Of a DNA stretch of 64,000 nt, positions 7,341-41,382 are shown piece by piece (within the stretch, counting starts at the first letter, position 1; every line of letters starts with the position of its first letter). Position numbers and translations under genes: made by a program. This DNA is from an uncultured Ignavibacteriaceae bacterium (GTDB lineage: Bacteria > Bacteroidota > Ignavibacteria > UBA10030 > BY39), in assembly GCA_964437735.1 (NCBI GenBank), contig CAYTID010000001.1, positions 8,169-72,168 of the forward strand, read 5' to 3'. A model generated the notes under the pieces. The model searched no databases. It saw only the letters and a list, made by a program, of their open reading frames with translations, and was not told where the DNA came from.

Positions 7341-7712
7341 TCAGTTTCTTTTTCTTGATACCGCTACTTCAACATAATCTACAACCCCTTTTACCGGGGG
7401 ATGTGGTTTCCGCAGATTTACCATAACTTTTGAAATATTTCTATATTCTTCCAAAAGTCTATCAGCGATGGATGAAGCTAATGATTCAAGTAAAAAATAT
7501 TTTTTTTCATTGACAAGGCTTTTTAAAAGTGAATATATTTTTTCATAGTCGACAGTTAGATTTAAATTATCACTTTTTGCAGCCTCCGAAAAATCAGTTG
7601 TCATTTCGATATCAACTTCGAATTTTCCGCCCAACCTCTGTTCATCTTTATCGACTCCGTGGTAAGCGTAAAATACCGCATTTTTAATGCGGATGATATC
7701 CTGATTTGTCAT
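7341..7712 (-). CDS. folB: Dihydroneopterin aldolase
   Basis: IKNAVFYAYHGVDKDEQRLGGKFEVDIEM resembles the FolB core. 123 aa. Adjacent to folK. Confidence 0.85.
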   Translation of the reverse strand: MTNQDIIRIKNAVFYAYHGVDKDEQRLGGKFEVDIEMTTDFSEAAKSDNLNLTVDYEKIYSLLKSLVNEKKYFLLESLASSIADRLLEEYRNISKVMVNLRKPHPPVKGVVDYVEVAVSRKRN

Positions 7713-7789
7713 ATTGCACTTTTGTTTTGAAAAATATATTACTTTTGAGCATAATAATCAAGGAAATATTTTCTCTATATCAAATCCAT

Positions 7790-9479: not shown

Positions 9480-10943
9480 TTATATTTTTAGCCTTTCTAT
9501 CGCGGTATGAATTCTTTTAATAGTTTCTTCCTTACCGAGGATGTATAAAATATCGTAAAGTCCCGGACCGCCCCCGACACCCGATACCGATAAACGGCAA
9601 GCATGAATCAGTTTCCCGGTACCGATATTTAAAATCTCTGCAGTCTTCTGTAAAGCTTTTTCATAATCCTCCTTAGAAGGATTTACCAATTTTGAAAACT
9701 CTTCCTCTAATTTTTTCAATTGCTCCGGAGTTTCCGGCTTCCATCTTTTTTTCACGACTTCGGGATCATATTCGGTCGGGGATTCAAAAAAGTACGGACT
9801 TTTTTCCGGAAAATCTTTTACAAAAAAAGCTCTCTCGCGCATTGCATCTATCACTTGCATTAAAAAAAAGTCATTATAGATATTATTTTTGAATTTTGAT
9901 CTTGATAATTCTTCTTTTAATAAATTTAATACATCGTTTTCAGATTTTCTTCTCAAATGTTCAAAGTTTAACCAATTCAATTTTTCTAAATTAAAAACCG
10001 CGCCGGCTTTATTAACTTTTTCCAAAGAAAATTGTTCTATCAAATCATGAATTGTAAAATATTCCTGTTCAGTGCCGGGATTCCAGCCGAGCATCGCAAC
10101 AAAATTTATCAAAGCTTCTTTCAAATACCCTTTATCCCGATAATCTTCAACGGCAACATCACCTTGGCGCTTGCTGAGTTTGCTCCGGTCGGGATTCAAG
10201 AGAAGAGGAAGATGTGCGAGATTAGGCATTTCCCAACCTAAATATTCATACAAAAGTAAATGTTTCGGCACACTCGGAAGCCACTCCTCACCACGTATAA
10301 TATGAGTGATACCCATCGTATGATCATCTATTACATTAGCCATGTGATAAGTAGGAAATCCATCAGATTTTATCAACACTTGATCGTCGATGATATCACT
10401 TGATATTTCCACTTCATTACGAATAAGGTCATAAAATTTGATCAGACGATTATCAGGTATTTTCATCCTTATAACATATGGAATACCCGTTTCTAATTTG
10501 GAATCAATTTCATTTTGTGTTAATAAAAGGCAGCGCTTATCATATTTCGGAAAATTTTGATTCTTTTCCTGGTTTTTCCGCATTTCGTCGAGTCGTTCAC
10601 TCGTACAAAAACATCGATATGCATAACCATCATTAATTAATTGGGCAGCATACTTTTTATAAAAATCTAAGCGTTCTGATTGCATATAAGGACCAAATCC
10701 ACCCTCCTTACCCGGTCCTTCATCAAAATCTAGTCCTGCCCACCTGAGCATTTTTATTAAATTTTCAACAGCGCCTTCTACATATCTGCTTCTGTCAGTA
10801 TCTTCAATCCTTAGGATAAATGTACCATTGTTTTTTCTGGCAAAAAGGTAATTATATAACGCCGTCCGAAGTCCGCCGACGTGAAGGTAACCTGTTGGAC
10901 TTGGGGCAAATCGGACTCTAATTTTATCTGTTTTCATTTGCAA
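9480..10943 (-). CDS. gltX: Glutamyl-tRNA synthetase
   Basis: [28 protein letters not shown] (HIGH region) and KLSKR motif. 487 aa. Confidence 0.9.
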
Positions 10944-11029: not shown

Positions 11030-11062
11030 CAAAAAAAACAGCCGATATTTAAAATCGGCTGT
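11030..11062 (-). terminator. Rho-independent terminator downstream of tRNA-Ser (9-bp perfect stem acagccgat/atcggctgt followed by U8 on the minus strand)
   Basis: Hairpin at 11038-11062 is read directly from the sequence. On the plus strand it is preceded by A8, which is a U-run after the stem on the minus strand. Confidence 0.55.
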
Positions 11063-11069
11063 TTCATCC

Positions 11070-11161
11070 GGCGGAGAGGGAGAGATTCGAACTCTCGATA
11101 GCAGTCTACCCACTATGACGGTTTAGCAAACCGTTGCCTTCAGCCACTCGGCCACCTCTCC
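11070..11161 (-). tRNA. tRNA-Ser (anticodon GCU), type II with long variable arm
   Basis: The reverse complement reads GGAGAGGTGGCCGAGTGGCTGAAGGCAACGGTTTGCTAAACCGTCATAGTGGGTAGACTGCTATCGAGAGTTCGAATCTCTCCCTCTCCG. The 7-bp acceptor stem, anticodon stem ACGGT/ACCGT with loop TTGCTAA, long variable arm and T-loop TTCGAAT were folded by hand. Confidence 0.85.
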
Positions 11162-11420
11162 GGGTTGGTTGAAAATTTATGATTTAATATATAAAAAGTG
11201 AGATAAATTTCAAAATGCATGAATTGAAAATTATTTTACATCTGCTTCTCTATTAAAATATTTTTTTATGTTGGTTTGTCTGATCTCTGGTAGAATAATT
11301 TTCGTGATAGAACAAAAACGGAATACATTCGCTCCTCTTCTATTGTCAGTTCGTATTGCCTTTAGTCCGTCTCACGAAGTTGACCAGAAATCTCGTTCCG
11401 ATTCTTTAATTGGAACGGAC

Positions 11421-11470
11421 CACTCGTCCTCCTCTCCGGGTTGGTTGAAAATTTATGATTTAATATTAAA
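11421..11470. repeat. Direct repeat copy 2 (partner at 11145-11194): about 50 bp, comprising 35 identical nt plus a diverged copy of the first about 18 nt of tRNA-Ser
   Basis: 11432-11466 is identical to 11156-11190 (ctctccgggttggttgaaaatttatgatttaatat). 11421-11431 resembles tRNA-Ser positions 1-18 with 2-3 mismatches. Confidence 0.6.
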
Positions 11471-11518
11471 ATGGTTTAAACGCCCCGACCTCGTGAGCTT
11501 TTGATCAGCCTAGTAATC

Positions 11519-11785
11519 TCATGGAAAATAACGATAGATATCTTTTCGATGTAGGACTCTTTCAAAAATTAATTTATCATCCTCAAATTTCAGCCCCACT
11601 CGATATGAGCCTAAACGAACTTTAAAATAATCCGGATAGCCCTTCATTCTCTCAATCTTTGGAGTGTCTAAAATAGTTTTTAACGAAGAGTAATCTACGA
11701 AGATAAAAGTTTCAATCTCCTTCCTAATAGGGGACGGAATCTTAGAAAGTTCTTTGAGAAACCGCTTCCTATATTCGACTTTCAC
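11519..11785 (-). CDS. Type II toxin, RelE/ParE (plasmid-stabilisation) superfamily
   Basis: 88 aa. The C-terminal pattern ...KFEDDKLIFERVLHRKDIYRYF is typical of RelE/ParE-family toxins. 4-nt overlap with the upstream small antitoxin-like ORF. Confidence 0.65.
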   Translation of the reverse strand: MKVEYRKRFLKELSKIPSPIRKEIETFIFVDYSSLKTILDTPKIERMKGYPDYFKVRLGSYRVGLKFEDDKLIFERVLHRKDIYRYFP

Positions 11786-11985
11786 TTTTGCTTATCTAAA
11801 TTTCGGTAAAAGGTTTTTGCTTCAGCAATAGAAAGTTTTTCATCATTTTCTACTTCCTTCATCAATTGGACCAATCCATAGTTCTCCAAAATTTCCTCAA
11901 TTTTTTCAAATGTTCTGATATCAAGTTGGACTGCAACTTTTTTATTGTTTTCATCGACGATGTATGTTTTTGGAATATCAGTCAT
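11782..11985 (-). CDS. Putative antitoxin partner of the RelE/ParE-like toxin (start moved to MTDIPKTY...; RBS aggaaa upstream)
   Basis: 67 aa acidic protein immediately upstream of the toxin and overlapping it. KVAVQLDIRTFEKIEEILE...LSIAEAKTFY resembles the small antitoxins that accompany RelE-like toxins in Bacteroidota and cyanobacteria. The longer 98-aa reading has no RBS. Confidence 0.5.
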   Translation of the reverse strand: MTDIPKTYIVDENNKKVAVQLDIRTFEKIEEILENYGLVQLMKEVENDEKLSIAEAKTFYRNLDKQK

Positions 11986-12085
11986 AATTATTTCCTTTCG
12001 AAAGCAATATACGGAATAAGCCTGTTTTGAGCAAACTATTTTAGTTTTTAGCCTATTTCCCTCAATTCTGCGAAACACTCTTATA

Positions 12086-12976
12086 TCATCTCAAAAATAA
12101 AATGGCCACACCTGCGACAGCCAAGAAGGCACCCATAATAGCATTCCCGGATAGTTTTTCTTTATAAATATATCTGACCATCGGCAACATGATAATTGGA
12201 ACAAGCGCCATAATCGTTGCTGCTATTCCTACTTTAGTATATTCGATTGCAAAAAGACTGAATGAAATCCCTAAGAAGGGACCAAGAACCGCTCCTAATG
12301 CAGTTAGACCAAACGCTTTCCTATCCTGAATGTACATAATCACCGGATTTTTATATCGTTTTGTCATCAATGCAACCGGTAATAAAAAAATTAAGGACGA
12401 AATAATGCGGATCTCAGTTGCAACAAATCCATTCAGTTCGCCTTCATTGAAAGCCATTTTTGCAAAGATTAATCCTGCTCCCTGACCAACAGCACCGAGA
12501 AAGGCATATAAAATTCCTGAGGGCTTAATAATATTTTTTTCTTTCGTTTTTTGACTTCGCGCAAAAACCACAATACTGATTCCGAAAACAGTAAGCGATA
12601 TTCCGGCTATTCCGAATACTGATAAAGTTTCATCCAATATGAAAAATGCAAGTACAGCCGCTATAGCCGGTGCGAGCGACATCATCAGCATACTTATCCG
12701 GGCGCCGACTTCTCTGAATGCTTTAAACAAAAACGTGTCGCCCAATGTCAGTCCTATAAAACCACTGATACCAAGATTGATGATTTGACTTTTAGTTAGA
12801 TTAATATTGAGTTGTGCAACGATAATTAATATTGCAAGATATATTGCCCCCAATATCAGGCGCGTGATATTTACTTGAAATGATCCGGCACGTTTAGTTG
12901 CAGCAGCAAATGCAATCGAGCCTCCTGACCAAAGAAAGGCTGTTAATAATGCACTTAATTCACCAATAAATGGCAT
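12086..12976 (-). CDS. DMT-superfamily (EamA-like) transporter, about 10 TM
   Basis: Two similar 5-TM halves; hydrophobic throughout. 296 aa. Confidence 0.75.
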   Translation of the reverse strand: MPFIGELSALLTAFLWSGGSIAFAAATKRAGSFQVNITRLILGAIYLAILIIVAQLNINLTKSQIINLGISGFIGLTLGDTFLFKAFREVGARISMLMMSLAPAIAAVLAFFILDETLSVFGIAGISLTVFGISIVVFARSQKTKEKNIIKPSGILYAFLGAVGQGAGLIFAKMAFNEGELNGFVATEIRIISSLIFLLPVALMTKRYKNPVIMYIQDRKAFGLTALGAVLGPFLGISFSLFAIEYTKVGIAATIMALVPIIMLPMVRYIYKEKLSGNAIMGAFLAVAGVAILFLR

Positions 12977-12995
12977 CAGTTATTTTCCCTTTTAT

Positions 12996-13334
12996 TTATC
13001 TGACATTATAGTTTAATTCCTGTAACTTTTCTTTAACACGTAAAAGTTGTTCTCCCTGAATTTCTATATTTCCTTCTTTTACTGTTCCACCTGCACCGCA
13101 ATGTTGTTTTAACATTTTTGCAATTTCTTCGACAACCGTAGGACTATGTTTCAAACCGGATATGATCGTTACTATTTTTCCTTTCCTTCCGTTTTTTTCG
13201 ATATATACTCTTACAACTTTTCCTTTACCATCATGCTTAATATTTCGGGAATTTTCCGAAATCTTAATCCGCTCCGTGTCGGGAAGAAATGTCTCCAGGT
13301 CTGATAGAGATTTCAGTATTTTTTTCTGCTCCAT
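12996..13334 (-). CDS. yciH: SUI1/eIF1-family translation initiation factor (YciH-like)
   Basis: 112 aa. GKGKVVRVYIEKNGRKGKIVTIISGL...NIEIQGEQ matches the SUI1 fold signature. Confidence 0.8.
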   Translation of the reverse strand: MEQKKILKSLSDLETFLPDTERIKISENSRNIKHDGKGKVVRVYIEKNGRKGKIVTIISGLKHSPTVVEEIAKMLKQHCGAGGTVKEGNIEIQGEQLLRVKEKLQELNYNVR

Positions 13335-13362
13335 TTTGTAATAATTTATAATTTATTATAAT

Positions 13363-13396
13363 AAAAAAAAACCTCTCCGATTATTCACCGAAGAGG
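13363..13396 (-). terminator. Rho-independent terminator ending the 13.4-24.8 kb surface-protein operon
   Basis: Stem cctctccg/cgaagagg (8 bp, 1 mismatch) at 13372-13396. On the minus strand it is followed by U9 (A9 on plus at 13363-13371). Confidence 0.55.
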
Positions 13397-13421
13397 TTAA
13401 TATTTTCCGGGTTCGAATAAT

Positions 13422-14516
13422 TTATCTATCTGTCGATAAACGGAATCTTCTTACCATATTGTTGCCGCTATCTGCGACATATAGTGTTTTTCCTAAGAAT
13501 GTAACTCCTTTGGGCGATTTGAATGAAGGTCTGTTTAAACTTGCCAGCATGCTTTTCCCGAACGATTCAGGTTTATATCTCCCTCTCCTGTCAAACTTTA
13601 CTAAACTATCAAGCGCCGAGTCAACCATAAATATATCAAGTCTTGCCCTATCGATTGTTACAGATGTCGCTTCTTCAAATCTGGTTGGTTTTATGAAATC
13701 AATATATCTTTCTTCCGGTTTTGCAGGATTAAATTTGGGCAGCCAACCGTCAAATTCCGCATTTTTTTGATATATCATCCATAAAGCCCCATATATAATC
13801 TGTCCATCGGCTGAACTCTGACTCAAAACAAAATCATTACTATTCGGAAATGTAACTATACCTGTTGTCCGTAAAATATCGGTAATTCCTGAACCTGCAC
13901 GAGTCGATAAATCACCCACTGGCGTTATTAATTTATCATTACTTCCAAACAATAATACCCTTGTGTCGGGATCAATGAAACTGGCATTATCGGCTCCATC
14001 GCGAACGACTAGATATTGATTGTTCTGAAGGAGTCCAATTCCTCGAAATCTTCGTCTTGGTTTAGCGGTTTCCCGATATATTGTATCTAACCTTGCCTGT
14101 GCGAGATGGTGAGCCGCTTCGAATAATTTTATTCTGAAAATTGCTCCAATAGTATCACCGTTTGCGGGATTGATCATCTCACCCGAAACAAGTAAATCTA
14201 ATCGAAGGTCTTGTGATATCGCGATGGGTTTTAAGATTGATCTGGTTTCTAATATTACACCAGCTTCGTTCATTTGAATAATTCGGTTATTATCAGTATC
14301 TGCGATATAGATAAGCTGGTCGTACCCGGCAAACAGTGCCGTAGGATTATTAAATCCTGTAAATGGTGGAACAATTTCAATATATGTTGTATCACCAACA
14401 TTAATAATCGTTCCAACCGGTAAATTGGCAAGATCAAATTTTTCCTGACATCCGATAGCCAAAAATGTAATCAGGATGATTGTGATTGTTGAAATTTGTT
14501 TAATTTTTTTTCTCAT
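13422..14516 (-). CDS. Lipoprotein with NHL-type beta-propeller repeats
   Basis: Lipobox LAIGC after the signal peptide. Repeated LY(I/V)ADxxNNR(I/V) motifs (LIYIADTDNNRIIQM, LYVADSGNNMVRRF). Confidence 0.6.
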   Translation of the reverse strand: MRKKIKQISTITIILITFLAIGCQEKFDLANLPVGTIINVGDTTYIEIVPPFTGFNNPTALFAGYDQLIYIADTDNNRIIQMNEAGVILETRSILKPIAISQDLRLDLLVSGEMINPANGDTIGAIFRIKLFEAAHHLAQARLDTIYRETAKPRRRFRGIGLLQNNQYLVVRDGADNASFIDPDTRVLLFGSNDKLITPVGDLSTRAGSGITDILRTTGIVTFPNSNDFVLSQSSADGQIIYGALWMIYQKNAEFDGWLPKFNPAKPEERYIDFIKPTRFEEATSVTIDRARLDIFMVDSALDSLVKFDRRGRYKPESFGKSMLASLNRPSFKSPKGVTFLGKTLYVADSGNNMVRRFRLSTDR

Positions 14517-41129: not shown

Positions 41130-41306
41130 TGTCGGGGCGGCCCCAAAGGGGCAAGCGGGATTTTGCGCCGGAGGCGCATCAGCCTTCGGCTGAGGACCTA
41201 CAACCTCTTTTAATTTTGTCGGGGCTGCCCCCCGAAGGGACAAGCGGGATTTTGCGCCGGAGGCGCATCAACCTTCGGCTGAGAACCTACGACCTCTTTT
41301 CATTTT
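41130..41306 (-). repeat. Two tandem, roughly 88-nt GC-rich structured repeats (41130-41216 and 41217-41306) downstream of tRNA-Pro; each contains fragments of the tRNA-Pro 3' half
   Basis: Copies are about 90% identical. Each begins (plus strand) with tgtcggggc (the tRNA 3' acceptor end) and contains gcgggattt (T-arm) and gacctctt. Between these lie GC hairpins (gcgcc-gga-ggcgc; cagcc-ttcg-ggctg). Confidence 0.7.
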
Positions 41307-41308
41307 GT

Positions 41309-41382
41309 CGGGGCGGCGGGATTTGAACCCGCGACCTCTTGGTCCCGAACCAAGCGCGCTAGCCGGGCTGCGCTACGCCCCG
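41309..41382 (-). tRNA. tRNA-Pro (anticodon CGG)
   Basis: The reverse complement reads CGGGGCGTAGCGCAGCCCGGCTAGCGCGCTTGGTTCGGGACCAAGAGGTCGCGGGTTCAAATCCCGCCGCCCCGA. Acceptor stem CGGGGCG/CGCCCCG, anticodon stem CTTGG/CCAAG with loop TTCGGGA, T-loop TTCAAAT. Confidence 0.85.

What the first reader, a model, noticed from the sequence alone, without database searches (positions are those of the whole stretch)
11030..11985. tRNA-Ser(GCU) with a duplicated 5' end plus promoter flank 270 bp upstream, abutting a RelE/ParE toxin-antitoxin pair: a possible site-specific recombination scar
35 nt immediately upstream of the tRNA-Ser 5' end, plus the first about 18 nt of the tRNA (2-3 mismatches), are repeated in direct orientation at 11421-11470. 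The partner copy is at 11145-11194.

Direct repeats made of a tRNA end plus its flank are the hallmark of attL/attR sites left by tyrosine-recombinase elements. Here the duplicated part is the 5' end rather than the more usual 3' end. Only about 240 bp with no credible ORF lies between the copies.

Directly on the other side of copy 2 sits a two-gene overlapping RelE/ParE-like toxin plus small antitoxin module. This kind of cargo typically rides on islands. No integrase is visible, so this looks like a decayed or excised island junction, or alternatively a tandem promoter duplication that could launch a short tRNA-like transcript.
Basis: partly seen in the sequence, partly recalled or inferred. 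Interest (0 to 1): 0.55.

Follow-up and report, generated by a model that had tools for sequence, protein, structure and literature searches.

The report
Fossil GIY-YIG insertion beside tRNA-Ser
The repeated piece upstream of tRNA-Ser is real, but it is the decayed remnant of a small GIY-YIG nuclease gene flanked by a partial, hairpin-interrupted copy of the tRNA, a layout that recurs at several tRNA genes in related Ignavibacteria, and it is not an integrase island scar.

Summary
The 52-nt direct repeat (11144-11195 / 11420-11471, 48/52 identical) is confirmed, as are the tRNA-Ser(GCU) gene and the ParE/RelB toxin-antitoxin pair.

The interpretation changes. In relative L173 the same locus reads TA pair, then promoter plus tRNA-Ser nt 1-39, then an 85-aa GIY-YIG gene, then promoter plus intact tRNA-Ser, then gltX. 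The upstream partial copy there is interrupted after nt 18 by a 58-nt double hairpin.

The window keeps a decayed version:
- The -35 box is lost and two bases are substituted in nt 1-18.
- A 54-nt homologue of the hairpin insert remains, followed by tRNA nt 19-28.
- There is no GIY-YIG ORF, only weak traces.

The sharp boundary at nt 18 is therefore a hairpin insertion, not a recombinase crossover. The TA pair sits at the same position in L173 at 75-82% identity, so it looks inherited rather than island cargo.

The same architecture (intact tRNA, small GIY-YIG gene, hairpin-bearing tRNA fragment) occurs at tRNA-Leu(CAA) and tRNA-Asn(GUU) in other Ignavibacteria, in both polarities and with the gene present or absent.

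The closest described system is Ssn/SRM, single-domain GIY-YIG ssDNA nucleases flanked by hairpin repeats. Its published motif is not matched here. I found no description of the tRNA association in the searchable literature.

The parts
11070..11161 (-). Intact tRNA-Ser(GCU) gene (T), the working copy
   Evidence: ARAGORN; Rfam RF00005, 59.4 bits, E 1.2e-11; 97% identical to the tRNA-Ser of L001/L168, L002 and L173
11035..11065 (-). Intrinsic terminator-like hairpin plus T-run downstream of the tRNA
   Evidence: 12-pair stem followed by TTTTGTAAAA
11186..11213 (-). Sigma-70-type promoter of the intact tRNA: TTGAAA, 16-nt spacer, TATATT. The -35 box lies outside the repeat.
   Evidence: Same layout in L173 (TTGATA-16-TATATT) and, read by eye in the sequences, in L168 and L002
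11144..11195 (-). Repeat copy 1: -10 region, 24-nt leader and tRNA nt 1-18
11420..11471 (-). Repeat copy 2 (start of the fragment F): decayed -10 region, identical leader, pseudo-tRNA nt 1-18 with T8A and C11A. No -35 box upstream.
   Evidence: Corresponds to L173 5286-5375
11366..11419 (-). 54-nt remnant of the double-hairpin insertion in the D-loop of the pseudo-tRNA. Hairpin 1 is partly kept, hairpin 2 is destroyed.
   Evidence: Aligns with the 58-nt insert of L173 (5376-5433): score 54 against shuffles of 20.2 +/- 2.65, 0 of 500 reaching it. DNA fold z is -0.19 in the window against -6.6 in L173.
11356..11365 (-). Pseudo-tRNA nt 19-28 (CTAAAGGCAA, against CTGAAGGCAA in the gene), where tRNA homology resumes after the insert
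11228..11314 (-). Possible relic of the 3' half of the lost GIY-YIG gene (weak evidence)
   Evidence: Local alignments to the GIY-YIG genes of L173 and L168 fall at collinear positions, but each is reached by 22 of 500 shuffles. There is no ORF and no significant protein-level match.
11519..11785 (-). RelE/ParE-family toxin gene: a neighbour, not part of the scar
   Evidence: PF05016, E 2.9e-7; 75% identical to the syntenic toxin of L173
11782..11988 (-). RelB-like antitoxin gene, overlapping the toxin start by 4 nt
   Evidence: PF18506, E 1.4e-28; 82% identical to the syntenic antitoxin of L173

Best explanation
The 52-nt repeat is the best-preserved piece of a decayed three-part module, written F-G-T.
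- F is a displaced copy of the tRNA-Ser promoter, leader and 5' half (nt 1-39), interrupted after nt 18 by a GC-rich double hairpin.
- G is a small single-domain GIY-YIG nuclease gene.
- T is the promoter plus the intact tRNA-Ser(GCU).

Shown: the module is intact in relative L173 and half-decayed in L168. The window keeps a homologue of F (nt 1-18, hairpin insert, nt 19-28) and T, but no G ORF.

Inferred, step 1: the module arose when a tiny GIY-YIG element inserted at the 3' edge of the anticodon loop (between nt 39 and 40). It brought its own replacement promoter and 5' half, so the downstream copy stays functional. This is the rare 5'-polarity way of restoring a tRNA target.

Inferred, step 2: F and T keep exchanging sequence by gene conversion up to the hairpin. 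That would explain why the leader is 34/34 identical within the window yet cannot be aligned between genomes.

Inferred, step 3: after G was lost in the window lineage, the -35 box, the hairpins and nt 19-39 of F decayed.

The TA pair is an inherited neighbour of this locus.
For: L173 sequence: toxin stop, then promoter + leader + GGAGAGGTGGCCGAGTGG, then a 58-nt insert made of two perfect hairpins, then CTGAAGGCAACGGTTTGCTAAA (nt 19-40), then GIY-YIG (PF01541, E 4e-16), then a second promoter + intact tRNA-Ser, then gltX. The repeat finder on L173 gives a 90-nt and a 22-nt repeat pair.

The window spacer aligns to the L173 insert plus nt 19-28 with 0 of 500 shuffles reaching the score.

TonB receptor, PorV, NHL protein, TA pair, tRNA-Ser, GltX and GlnRS are syntenic between the window and L173 at 64-82% amino-acid identity.

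L168 keeps AACGGTTTGCTGAA immediately upstream of its GIY-YIG gene.

Recurrence, in a census of 86 tRNAs in 1.84 Mb:
- F-G-T at tRNA-Leu(CAA) in L019 and L104.
- F-T with the same conserved hairpin but no G in L009 and L083.
- T-G-F at tRNA-Leu in L024.
- T-G-F-G at tRNA-Asn in L015.

Every Ignavibacterial-type GIY-YIG hit in the fetched loci lies next to a tRNA gene. Decay in the window is shown.
Against: No intact GIY-YIG gene is present in the window, and the trace of one is only marginal (22 of 500 shuffles).

Mobility is inferred only from recurrence and from presence or absence at genus-level distances. No filled and empty pair was seen among close strains, and no free or circular form was found.

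A nuclease alone is not known to carry out insertion. No transposase or recombinase accompanies it.

The hairpin-bearing fragment persists after gene loss in L009, L083 and the window. It could therefore have a host function rather than being a scar.

The loci were collected around gltX and EamA, so the census is small and biased.
Confidence: 0.7

Rival explanations
1. One reading: the two copies are attL and attR left by a tyrosine-recombinase island that targeted the 5' end of tRNA-Ser and later decayed or excised. The TA pair is surviving cargo.
For: tRNA-Ser(GCU) is a real integration site in this clade. L001/L168 carries a 5.7-kb element with a PF00589 integrase and a DnaB_C/PriCT_1 primase-helicase between a full and a partial tRNA-Ser. 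Related integrases (86-87% identity) sit next to tRNA-Ser in L170, L171 and L172. Integration at the 5' part of a tRNA gene is known but rare (PMC6563490).
Against: Those elements duplicate nt 14 to the 3' end and lie on the gltX side of the gene. L173 shows that site empty, and it is clean in the window. The break at nt 18 is a hairpin insertion, and homology resumes after it. In relatives only a GIY-YIG gene lies between the copies. No GGTAACCAC-type arm sites (the repeats read next to the integrase in L168) were seen in the window's repeat region (read). The TA pair is syntenic in L173 at housekeeping-like identity.
Confidence: 0.05
2. The upstream fragment is a functional host element rather than a scar. 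It could be a second promoter or structured leader for the tRNA, or a small tRNA-like RNA or ssDNA site kept for regulation or processing. The GIY-YIG gene would then be an optional passenger.
For: The fragment with its hairpin is retained after loss of the GIY-YIG gene in L009, L083 and the window. The tRNA-Leu hairpin keeps its stem through paired changes across five genomes: CCTGCC...GGCAGG against CCTGTC...GACAGG. The leader is kept identical to that of the working gene. The first 62 nt of a putative transcript can form a long hairpin of -23.4 kcal/mol.
Against: In the window the -35 box is gone, hairpin 2 is destroyed, and the fold is no better than shuffles (z -0.19). The overall RNA fold z is only -2.1. 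There is no Rfam match. The two substitutions in nt 1-18 are not compensatory. L170 and L002 carry tRNA-Ser without any such fragment.
Confidence: 0.13
3. A domesticated Ssn-like system. The GIY-YIG protein is a host ssDNA nuclease, the hairpins are its recognition sites, and the tRNA fragments are by-products of nuclease-induced repair at the tRNA genes. No mobile element is involved.
For: Ssn proteins are 94-aa single-domain GIY-YIG enzymes whose genes are flanked by 20-50-nt hairpin repeats in 71% of cases (PMC11893778). The Ignavibacterial proteins are single-domain, 65-103 aa. L173's is 38% identical to the L130 protein, which has canonical SRM repeats on both sides.
Against: The published SRM pattern finds nothing in any tRNA-associated module or in the window, while it finds both sites in the L130 control. 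The hairpins are locus-specific, not dispersed. Two tandem units at tRNA-Asn in L015 look like repeated insertion at one site.
Confidence: 0.1
4. A plain local segmental duplication of the promoter region by slippage or unequal crossing-over, unrelated to any gene or element.
For: Two direct copies 276 nt apart, with no other copy in the window.
Against: The DNA after each copy is unrelated, so this is not a tandem duplication. The same composite structure, with a homologous hairpin insert at the same position, exists in L173. Analogous structures sit next to GIY-YIG genes at three other tRNA loci.
Confidence: 0.02

Closest known systems
Ssn/SRM: single-domain GIY-YIG site-specific ssDNA nucleases (cd10448) flanked by hairpin repeats (Chenal et al. 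2025, PMC11893778)
   Same: A small (about 85-100 aa) stand-alone GIY-YIG protein with GC-rich hairpin-forming sequences directly beside its gene. The authors themselves note that the repeat-gene-repeat layout resembles an insertion sequence. One fetched locus (L130) is a textbook case, and its protein is 38% identical to the L173 protein.
   Different: The hairpins here do not fit the SRM consensus. They are locus-specific rather than dispersed, and they sit inside partial copies of the adjacent tRNA gene. The Ssn paper does not contain the word tRNA. cd10448 membership of the proteins was not tested. The window has no intact nuclease gene.
Integrative elements that restore a tRNA target by carrying its 5' part (reversed polarity; Zhao & Williams 2002, cited in PMC6563490)
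   Same: The duplicated segment is the promoter plus the 5' part of the tRNA. The break is at the anticodon loop, a classical crossover location (my knowledge of Williams 2002; that paper is not held). The working gene is the downstream copy.
   Different: No tyrosine or serine recombinase is present. The only gene between the copies in relatives is a GIY-YIG nuclease of about 260-310 nt, and the displaced copy carries a conserved hairpin insertion.
Free-standing GIY-YIG homing endonuclease genes such as phage T4 segB in the tRNA gene cluster (PMC2330249)
   Same: A GIY-YIG nuclease gene lodged among or next to tRNA genes, with patchy presence between relatives.
   Different: SegB-type enzymes have additional DNA-binding regions (my knowledge) and are not reported to duplicate the target (my reading of PMC2330249). 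Here the protein is the catalytic domain alone, and a tRNA fragment is duplicated.
Type II RelE/ParE-RelB toxin-antitoxin modules
   Same: Pfam matches for both genes, antitoxin first, 4-nt overlap.
   Different: Nothing unusual. It is a neighbour of the scar, conserved in position in L173, and not part of it.

Membership tests
attL/attR scar of a tyrosine-recombinase integrative element | An integrase gene between the repeats, here or in relatives | tested here: not met
   There is no ORF between the copies in the window. In L173 and L168 the only gene there is a GIY-YIG nuclease. Integrases in relatives lie on the 3' side of the tRNA.
attL/attR scar of a tyrosine-recombinase integrative element | The identity block ends at a crossover site inside the tRNA | tested here: not met
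   The end at nt 18 is produced by a 54-58-nt hairpin insertion, and tRNA homology resumes afterwards.
attL/attR scar of a tyrosine-recombinase integrative element | The intervening DNA is polymorphic among relatives | tested here: met
   The GIY-YIG gene is present in L173 and L168 and absent in the window. The analogous gene at tRNA-Leu is present in L019 and L104 and absent in L009 and L083. The intervening DNA is not an integrase island.
5'-polarity tRNA-targeting integrative elements | The duplicated block is the promoter plus the 5' part of the tRNA, with the intact gene at the far end | tested here: met
   L173: -72 to +39 is duplicated and the downstream copy is intact. Window: about -41 to +18, then +19 to +28.
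5'-polarity tRNA-targeting integrative elements | The element encodes a site-specific recombinase | tested here: not met
   Only PF01541 GIY-YIG is found.
Ssn/SRM GIY-YIG ssDNA nuclease modules | A single-domain GIY-YIG protein of about 90-100 aa | tested here: inconclusive
   Met in relatives: 85 aa in L173 and 103 aa in L168, both PF01541, with nearest solved structures UPF0213 (1YWL, 1ZG2) and SLX1. Not met in the window, where no ORF survives.
Ssn/SRM GIY-YIG ssDNA nuclease modules | Flanking repeats match the SRM consensus HGTCWY...RNCYNB | tested here: not met
   The regex gives 0 hits in the window and 0 in the seven tRNA-associated GIY-YIG regions scanned. It gives 2 hits flanking the L130 control gene.
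Ssn/SRM GIY-YIG ssDNA nuclease modules | The hairpin repeat is present in many dispersed copies in the genome | tested here: not met
   Each hairpin occurs only at its own tRNA locus within 1.84 Mb of sampled DNA. Whole genomes were not available.
Ssn/SRM GIY-YIG ssDNA nuclease modules | Assignment to CDD cd10448 and ssDNA-specific cleavage next to the hairpin | not testable with these tools
   No CDD library is available, and the biochemistry needs an experiment.
Free-standing GIY-YIG homing endonuclease | A GIY-YIG catalytic domain joined to a DNA-binding domain | tested here: not met
   The proteins are 65-103 aa and consist of the catalytic domain only. The match to I-TevI is weak (E 1e-3) and the match to TIGR01453 is far below its cut-off.
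Type II RelE/ParE-RelB toxin-antitoxin | Toxin and antitoxin domains in an overlapping two-gene operon | tested here: met
   PF05016 at 31.4 bits (cut-off 23) and PF18506 at 98.9 bits (cut-off 27); 4-nt overlap.
tRNA-Ser(GCU) | Cloverleaf with long variable arm and GCU anticodon | tested here: met
   ARAGORN; Rfam 59.4 bits against a gathering score of 29.

The most novel reading that the evidence does not exclude
Ignavibacteriota carry an undescribed family of minimal GIY-YIG-only selfish elements, relatives of Ssn nucleases, that insert into tRNA genes at or near the anticodon arm, in either polarity. Each carries a replacement copy of the displaced half (promoter plus 5' half, or 3' half plus terminator), so the tRNA stays functional. 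The displaced fragment acquires or carries a conserved GC-rich hairpin in its D- or T-loop. That hairpin may serve as the nuclease's ssDNA recognition site, or it may block recombination that would delete the element. Fragment and gene are then homogenised by gene conversion. The window holds a fossil of one such element at tRNA-Ser, and possibly gene-less relics at tRNA-Pro.
Probability: 0.4. Interest if true: 0.75.

Novelty: new variant of a known kind. Interest (0 to 1): 0.55.

Why it matters
For the window itself the result is modest: a decayed relic, with no island, no active nuclease and an ordinary TA pair.

The relic points to a recurrent design: an intact tRNA gene, a roughly 85-100-aa GIY-YIG nuclease gene, and a hairpin-interrupted fragment of the same tRNA. 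I saw it at tRNA-Ser, tRNA-Leu and tRNA-Asn in several Ignavibacterial genomes. I found no description of it in the searchable literature.

If these are mobile, they would be among the smallest autonomous-looking elements that target tRNA genes. They would use a nuclease rather than a recombinase. They would also give the recently described Ssn ssDNA nucleases a concrete genomic behaviour to test.

There is a practical point too. Such fragments can be mistaken for integrase att sites, or for tRNA genes or pseudogenes, during annotation and island prediction.

Tried and rejected
- **Spacer as a decayed copy of the rest of the tRNA.** A direct alignment scored at chance level, with 623 of 1000 shuffles as good, so I first dismissed it. 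With L173 as an intermediate, the 10-nt match CTAAAGGCAA proved to be real homology lying beyond a hairpin insert.
- **Crossover in the D-loop.** The integrase element of L001/L168 has an identity block starting at tRNA nt 14, and the window repeat ends at nt 18. I considered a shared crossover site and rejected it once L173 showed the nt-18 boundary to be an insertion.
- **Known RNA family in the spacer.** Nothing credible in Rfam at E up to 10.
- **Structured sRNA.** The fold z is only -2.1, and the two substitutions are not compensatory.
- **Other copies of the repeat or the spacer.** None in the window. None in IMG/VR by exact pattern. Only AT-rich chance hits in GenBank phages. No plasmid homologue of the GIY-YIG protein.
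- **tblastx of the spacer against the first 160 loci.** Nothing.
- **Exact-protein look-ups of window genes.** Look-ups of GltX, the toxin and the antitoxin (GltX at two start codons, the toxin also via P0241) were all not on record. Only EamA was found, on a 2.2-kb Logan contig.
- **Close relatives through GltX.** Best 69% in genomes and 66% in metagenomes over the full length. The informative relative L173 came from the toxin search instead.
- **SRM consensus of the Ssn paper.** No hit in the tRNA-linked modules.
- **Literature.** Zhao & Williams 2002 and Williams 2002 are not held.
Full report
**Observation.** The minus strand of the window carries tRNA-Ser(GCU) at 11070-11161 (ARAGORN; Rfam 59.4 bits). 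It is followed by a terminator-like hairpin and by gltX (9480-10937; Pfam).

The repeat finder reports a 52-nt direct repeat, 11144-11195 and 11420-11471, 48/52 identical. Copy 1 is the 34 nt upstream of the tRNA plus its first 18 nt. In copy 2 the 34 upstream nt are identical and the tRNA part has two changes (T8A, C11A). A 28-mer of the repeat occurs only at these two places in 64 kb and never in shuffles.

Beyond copy 2 lie a RelB-like antitoxin (PF18506, E 1.4e-28) and a ParE-family toxin (PF05016, E 2.9e-7), overlapping by 4 nt.

**First attempts.** The 224-nt spacer has no ORF on the relevant strand and no Rfam match. Its fold is only mildly better than shuffles (z -2.1). It showed no detectable similarity to the rest of the tRNA.

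The organism is an Ignavibacteriota/Melioribacter-like bacterium. The best GltX matches are 69% in species-representative genomes and 66% over the full length in metagenomes. Only two of the first 160 loci have this tRNA-Ser next to gltX.

One of them, L001 (the same contig as L168), has a 5.7-kb element between a complete and a partial tRNA-Ser. It carries a tyrosine integrase (PF00589, E 7.7e-32), a DnaB_C/PriCT_1 primase-helicase and GGTAACCAC arm-type repeats. Integrases 86-87% identical sit next to tRNA-Ser in L170, L171 and L172.

This tRNA is therefore a real integration hot spot. Those elements, however, duplicate nt 14 to the 3' end, on the gltX side. The window has nothing there.

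**The decisive relative.** The closest homologue of the toxin (75% identity) lies in L173 (GCA_947085405.1). The gene order there is TonB-dependent receptor, PorV, NHL-repeat protein, RelB-like antitoxin, ParE toxin, GIY-YIG, tRNA-Ser(GCU), gltX, glnS.

The window has the same order at 64-82% amino-acid identity, with antitoxin 82%, toxin 75%, GltX 69% and GlnRS 78%. There are two differences. SUI1 and EamA are intercalated between the NHL protein and the antitoxin in the window. The GIY-YIG gene is missing.

The TA pair is thus a conserved resident of this locus, as conserved as its housekeeping neighbours. It is not recently acquired cargo.

**The L173 sequence explains the repeat.** After the toxin stop come, in order:
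- a full promoter copy and the leader;
- tRNA-Ser nt 1-18;
- a 58-nt insert made of two perfect hairpins (CGTTCCAATTAT/ATAATTGGAACG and CGTTCCGAC/GTCGGAACG);
- tRNA nt 19-40, ending at the 3' edge of the anticodon loop;
- 37 nt of linker;
- an 85-aa GIY-YIG gene (PF01541, E 4e-16);
- a second promoter and the intact tRNA.

The repeat finder gives the two repeat pairs, 90 nt at 90% and 22 nt at 100%.

The first 64 nt of the window's spacer align to the L173 insert plus nt 19-28. The score is 54 against 20.2 +/- 2.65 for dinucleotide shuffles, reached by none of 500 (alignment). The abrupt end of similarity at nt 18 is therefore the edge of an insertion into the displaced copy, not a recombination crossover. 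The true end of the duplication is at nt 39/40.

L168 keeps a remnant (AACGGTTTGCTGAA) directly upstream of its own GIY-YIG gene.

**State of the module in the window.** Every part of the upstream copy is degraded relative to L173:
- The -35 box that copy 1, L173, L168 and L002 share (TTGAnA, 16-17 nt, TATATT; read) is replaced by GC-rich sequence.
- The -10 box has lost a base.
- Two tRNA positions are substituted.
- Hairpin 1 is shortened and hairpin 2 is destroyed. The DNA fold z is -0.19 against -6.6 for L173.
- Homology after nt 28 fades.
- No GIY-YIG ORF remains.

The distal spacer (11228-11314) aligns collinearly with the 3' half of the gene in both L173 and L168, but only marginally: 22 of 500 shuffles reach the score in each case. 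There is no significant protein-level match. I treat the gene relic as possible, not shown.

**Concerted evolution (inference).** The leader between promoter and tRNA is 34/34 identical between the two copies in the window and 37/37 in L173. The leaders of the two genomes differ in length and cannot be aligned.

If the module is ancestral, the two copies must be homogenised within each genome, most simply by gene conversion. The homologous insert at the same position suggests it is ancestral. The hairpin insert would bound the conversion tract. That would explain why the window's repeat looks young and sharp-edged while everything beyond it is old.

**Recurrence.** A tblastn of the GIY-YIG proteins against all fetched DNA, plus a scan of 86 tRNA genes in 1.84 Mb for nearby partial duplicates, found the same design at other tRNAs:

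| tRNA | Loci | Layout |
|---|---|---|
| Leu(CAA) | L019, L104 | fragment nt 1-24, hairpin CCTGCCTACCGCAGGCAGG, nt 25 to about 43, then GIY-YIG, then tRNA |
| Leu(CAA) | L009, L083 | same fragment and hairpin, no GIY-YIG gene |
| Leu(CAA) | L008 | same hairpin at a contig end |
| Leu(CAA) | L024 | tRNA, GIY-YIG, then a 3' fragment with two hairpin inserts |
| Asn(GUU) | L015 | tRNA, GIY-YIG, fragment from nt 38 with TCCCGACGGCGTCGGGA in place of the T-loop, then a second truncated GIY-YIG |

The displaced fragment always carries a GC-rich hairpin in its D-loop region (5' fragments) or T-loop (3' fragments). The working gene never does. Each hairpin is specific to its locus. The tRNA-Leu hairpin keeps its stem through paired changes across genomes. 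All seven Ignavibacterial-type GIY-YIG hits lie next to a tRNA gene. The sample is small and was collected around gltX, so it is biased.

**Comparison with known systems.** The proteins are single-domain GIY-YIG. The nearest solved structures are the UPF0213 proteins 1YWL and 1ZG2, followed by SLX1.

The closest described system is Ssn. These are 94-aa GIY-YIG nucleases (cd10448) that cut ssDNA next to hairpin repeats (NTS/SRM). The repeats flank the ssn gene in most genomes, a layout the authors liken to an insertion sequence (PMC11893778).

One fetched locus, L130, is a canonical case. The published SRM pattern hits on both sides of its GIY-YIG gene, and that protein is 38% identical to L173's. 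The same pattern finds nothing in the tRNA-linked modules or anywhere in the window. The Ssn paper does not mention tRNA at all.

Integration that restores the 5' part of a tRNA is known but uncommon (PMC6563490). The known cases involve recombinases. Full-text searches combining GIY-YIG with tRNA fragments, direct repeats, COG2827, YhbQ or UPF0213 returned nothing describing this arrangement. The library is incomplete, so this is absence of evidence only.

**Mechanism.**

Shown: the anatomy, the homology between the window and L173, the synteny of the TA pair, and the recurrence at other tRNAs.

Inferred: a small element (linker, GIY-YIG gene, replacement promoter and 5' half) inserted at nt 39/40 of tRNA-Ser. 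The original promoter and 5' half were left upstream as a fragment that may have driven the nuclease gene.

The tandem arrangement at tRNA-Asn and the two polarities at tRNA-Leu fit repeated insertion at the anticodon-arm region.

Unknown: how a lone nuclease would achieve insertion. Possibilities are break-induced copying from a donor allele, or Campbell-type recombination through the carried tRNA segment. Also unknown is what the hairpins do. They could be a recognition site, a block to deletion, or a processing signal.

**Verdict.** It is a scar of selfish DNA, but not an integrase att pair. The TA pair is not cargo, and a tandem promoter is unlikely.

The window holds a fossil. The class it belongs to appears to be a new variant combining features of Ssn-type modules and tRNA-targeting elements.

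Noticed in passing
window 41141-41317 (minus strand), downstream of tRNA-Pro(CGG) 41307-41382: Two tandem 88/89-nt units (92% identical) follow the tRNA directly. Each looks like the 3' part of tRNA-Pro (AAGAGGTyGyrGGTy ... AAATCCCGC ... CCCCGAC), with GC-rich hairpins (CAGCCGAAGGyTG, GCGCCTCCGGCGC, CCCTTyGGGG) inserted in the T-loop and the acceptor strand. This is the same style as the fragments next to GIY-YIG genes elsewhere, but no GIY-YIG gene is present.
   Followed up: partly
L001 1-5900 = L168 9744-15635: A 5.7-kb integrative element sits in tRNA-Ser(GCU) of the closest gltX relative. It has a tyrosine integrase, a DnaB_C/PriCT_1 primase-helicase and GGTAACCAC arm-type repeats. Its identity block runs from tRNA nt 14 to 3 nt past the 3' end. 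L173 shows the empty site. Related integrases (86-87%) sit next to tRNA-Ser in L170, L171 and L172.
   Followed up: yes
window 12086-13334 (SUI1 12996-13334, EamA 12086-12976): These two genes lie between the NHL-repeat gene and the antitoxin only in the window. In L173 the antitoxin follows the NHL gene after 160 nt. In other relatives (L162-L167) SUI1, OPT and EamA form a block ending at tRNA-Arg(CCG) at a different locus. This suggests a translocation into the variable region upstream of tRNA-Ser.
   Followed up: partly
L165 6891-12600: In a relative, the tRNA-Arg(CCG) downstream of EamA is interrupted in its T-arm by an element with a PF00589 integrase and an AAA_25 protein. ARAGORN no longer detects a tRNA there. 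Logan contigs of the same population (L166, L167) break at that point.
   Followed up: partly
L130 7396-7854: A canonical Ssn-type module: a small GIY-YIG gene (7488-7740) flanked by two hits to the published SRM pattern (TGTCATTCCGGACTCCGATCCGGGATCCAG and AGTCATCCCGGACTTGATCCGGGATCCAG). It served as the positive control.
   Followed up: yes
L015 5955-6608: A 281-nt tandem duplication (86% identity) holds two GIY-YIG genes downstream of tRNA-Asn(GUU). A tRNA fragment bearing a perfect palindrome lies between them, and the second gene is truncated at its C-terminus. It looks like two successive insertions at the same tRNA position.
   Followed up: partly
L161 (Logan SRR11582139), corresponding to window about 12083-14260: The only other assembly found that encodes the window's exact EamA protein is a 2.2-kb contig ending 3 nt after the EamA stop codon, just before the TA pair. 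This could reflect low coverage or population variation at that junction.
   Followed up: no
L168 9120-9330: In place of the TA pair and the 5' part of the tRNA fragment, this relative has a run of GC-rich palindromes (for example CCTGCCGCCTGCCTGTCGGCAGACAGGTCGGGCAGG) in an otherwise AT-rich region. The called 67-aa ORF there has no domain hit and is probably spurious. The octamer AGGTCGGG also occurs upstream of the window's copy 2.
   Followed up: no
window, whole: 38 of the 43 ORFs of 150 aa or more are on the minus strand, a strongly co-oriented stretch.
   Followed up: no
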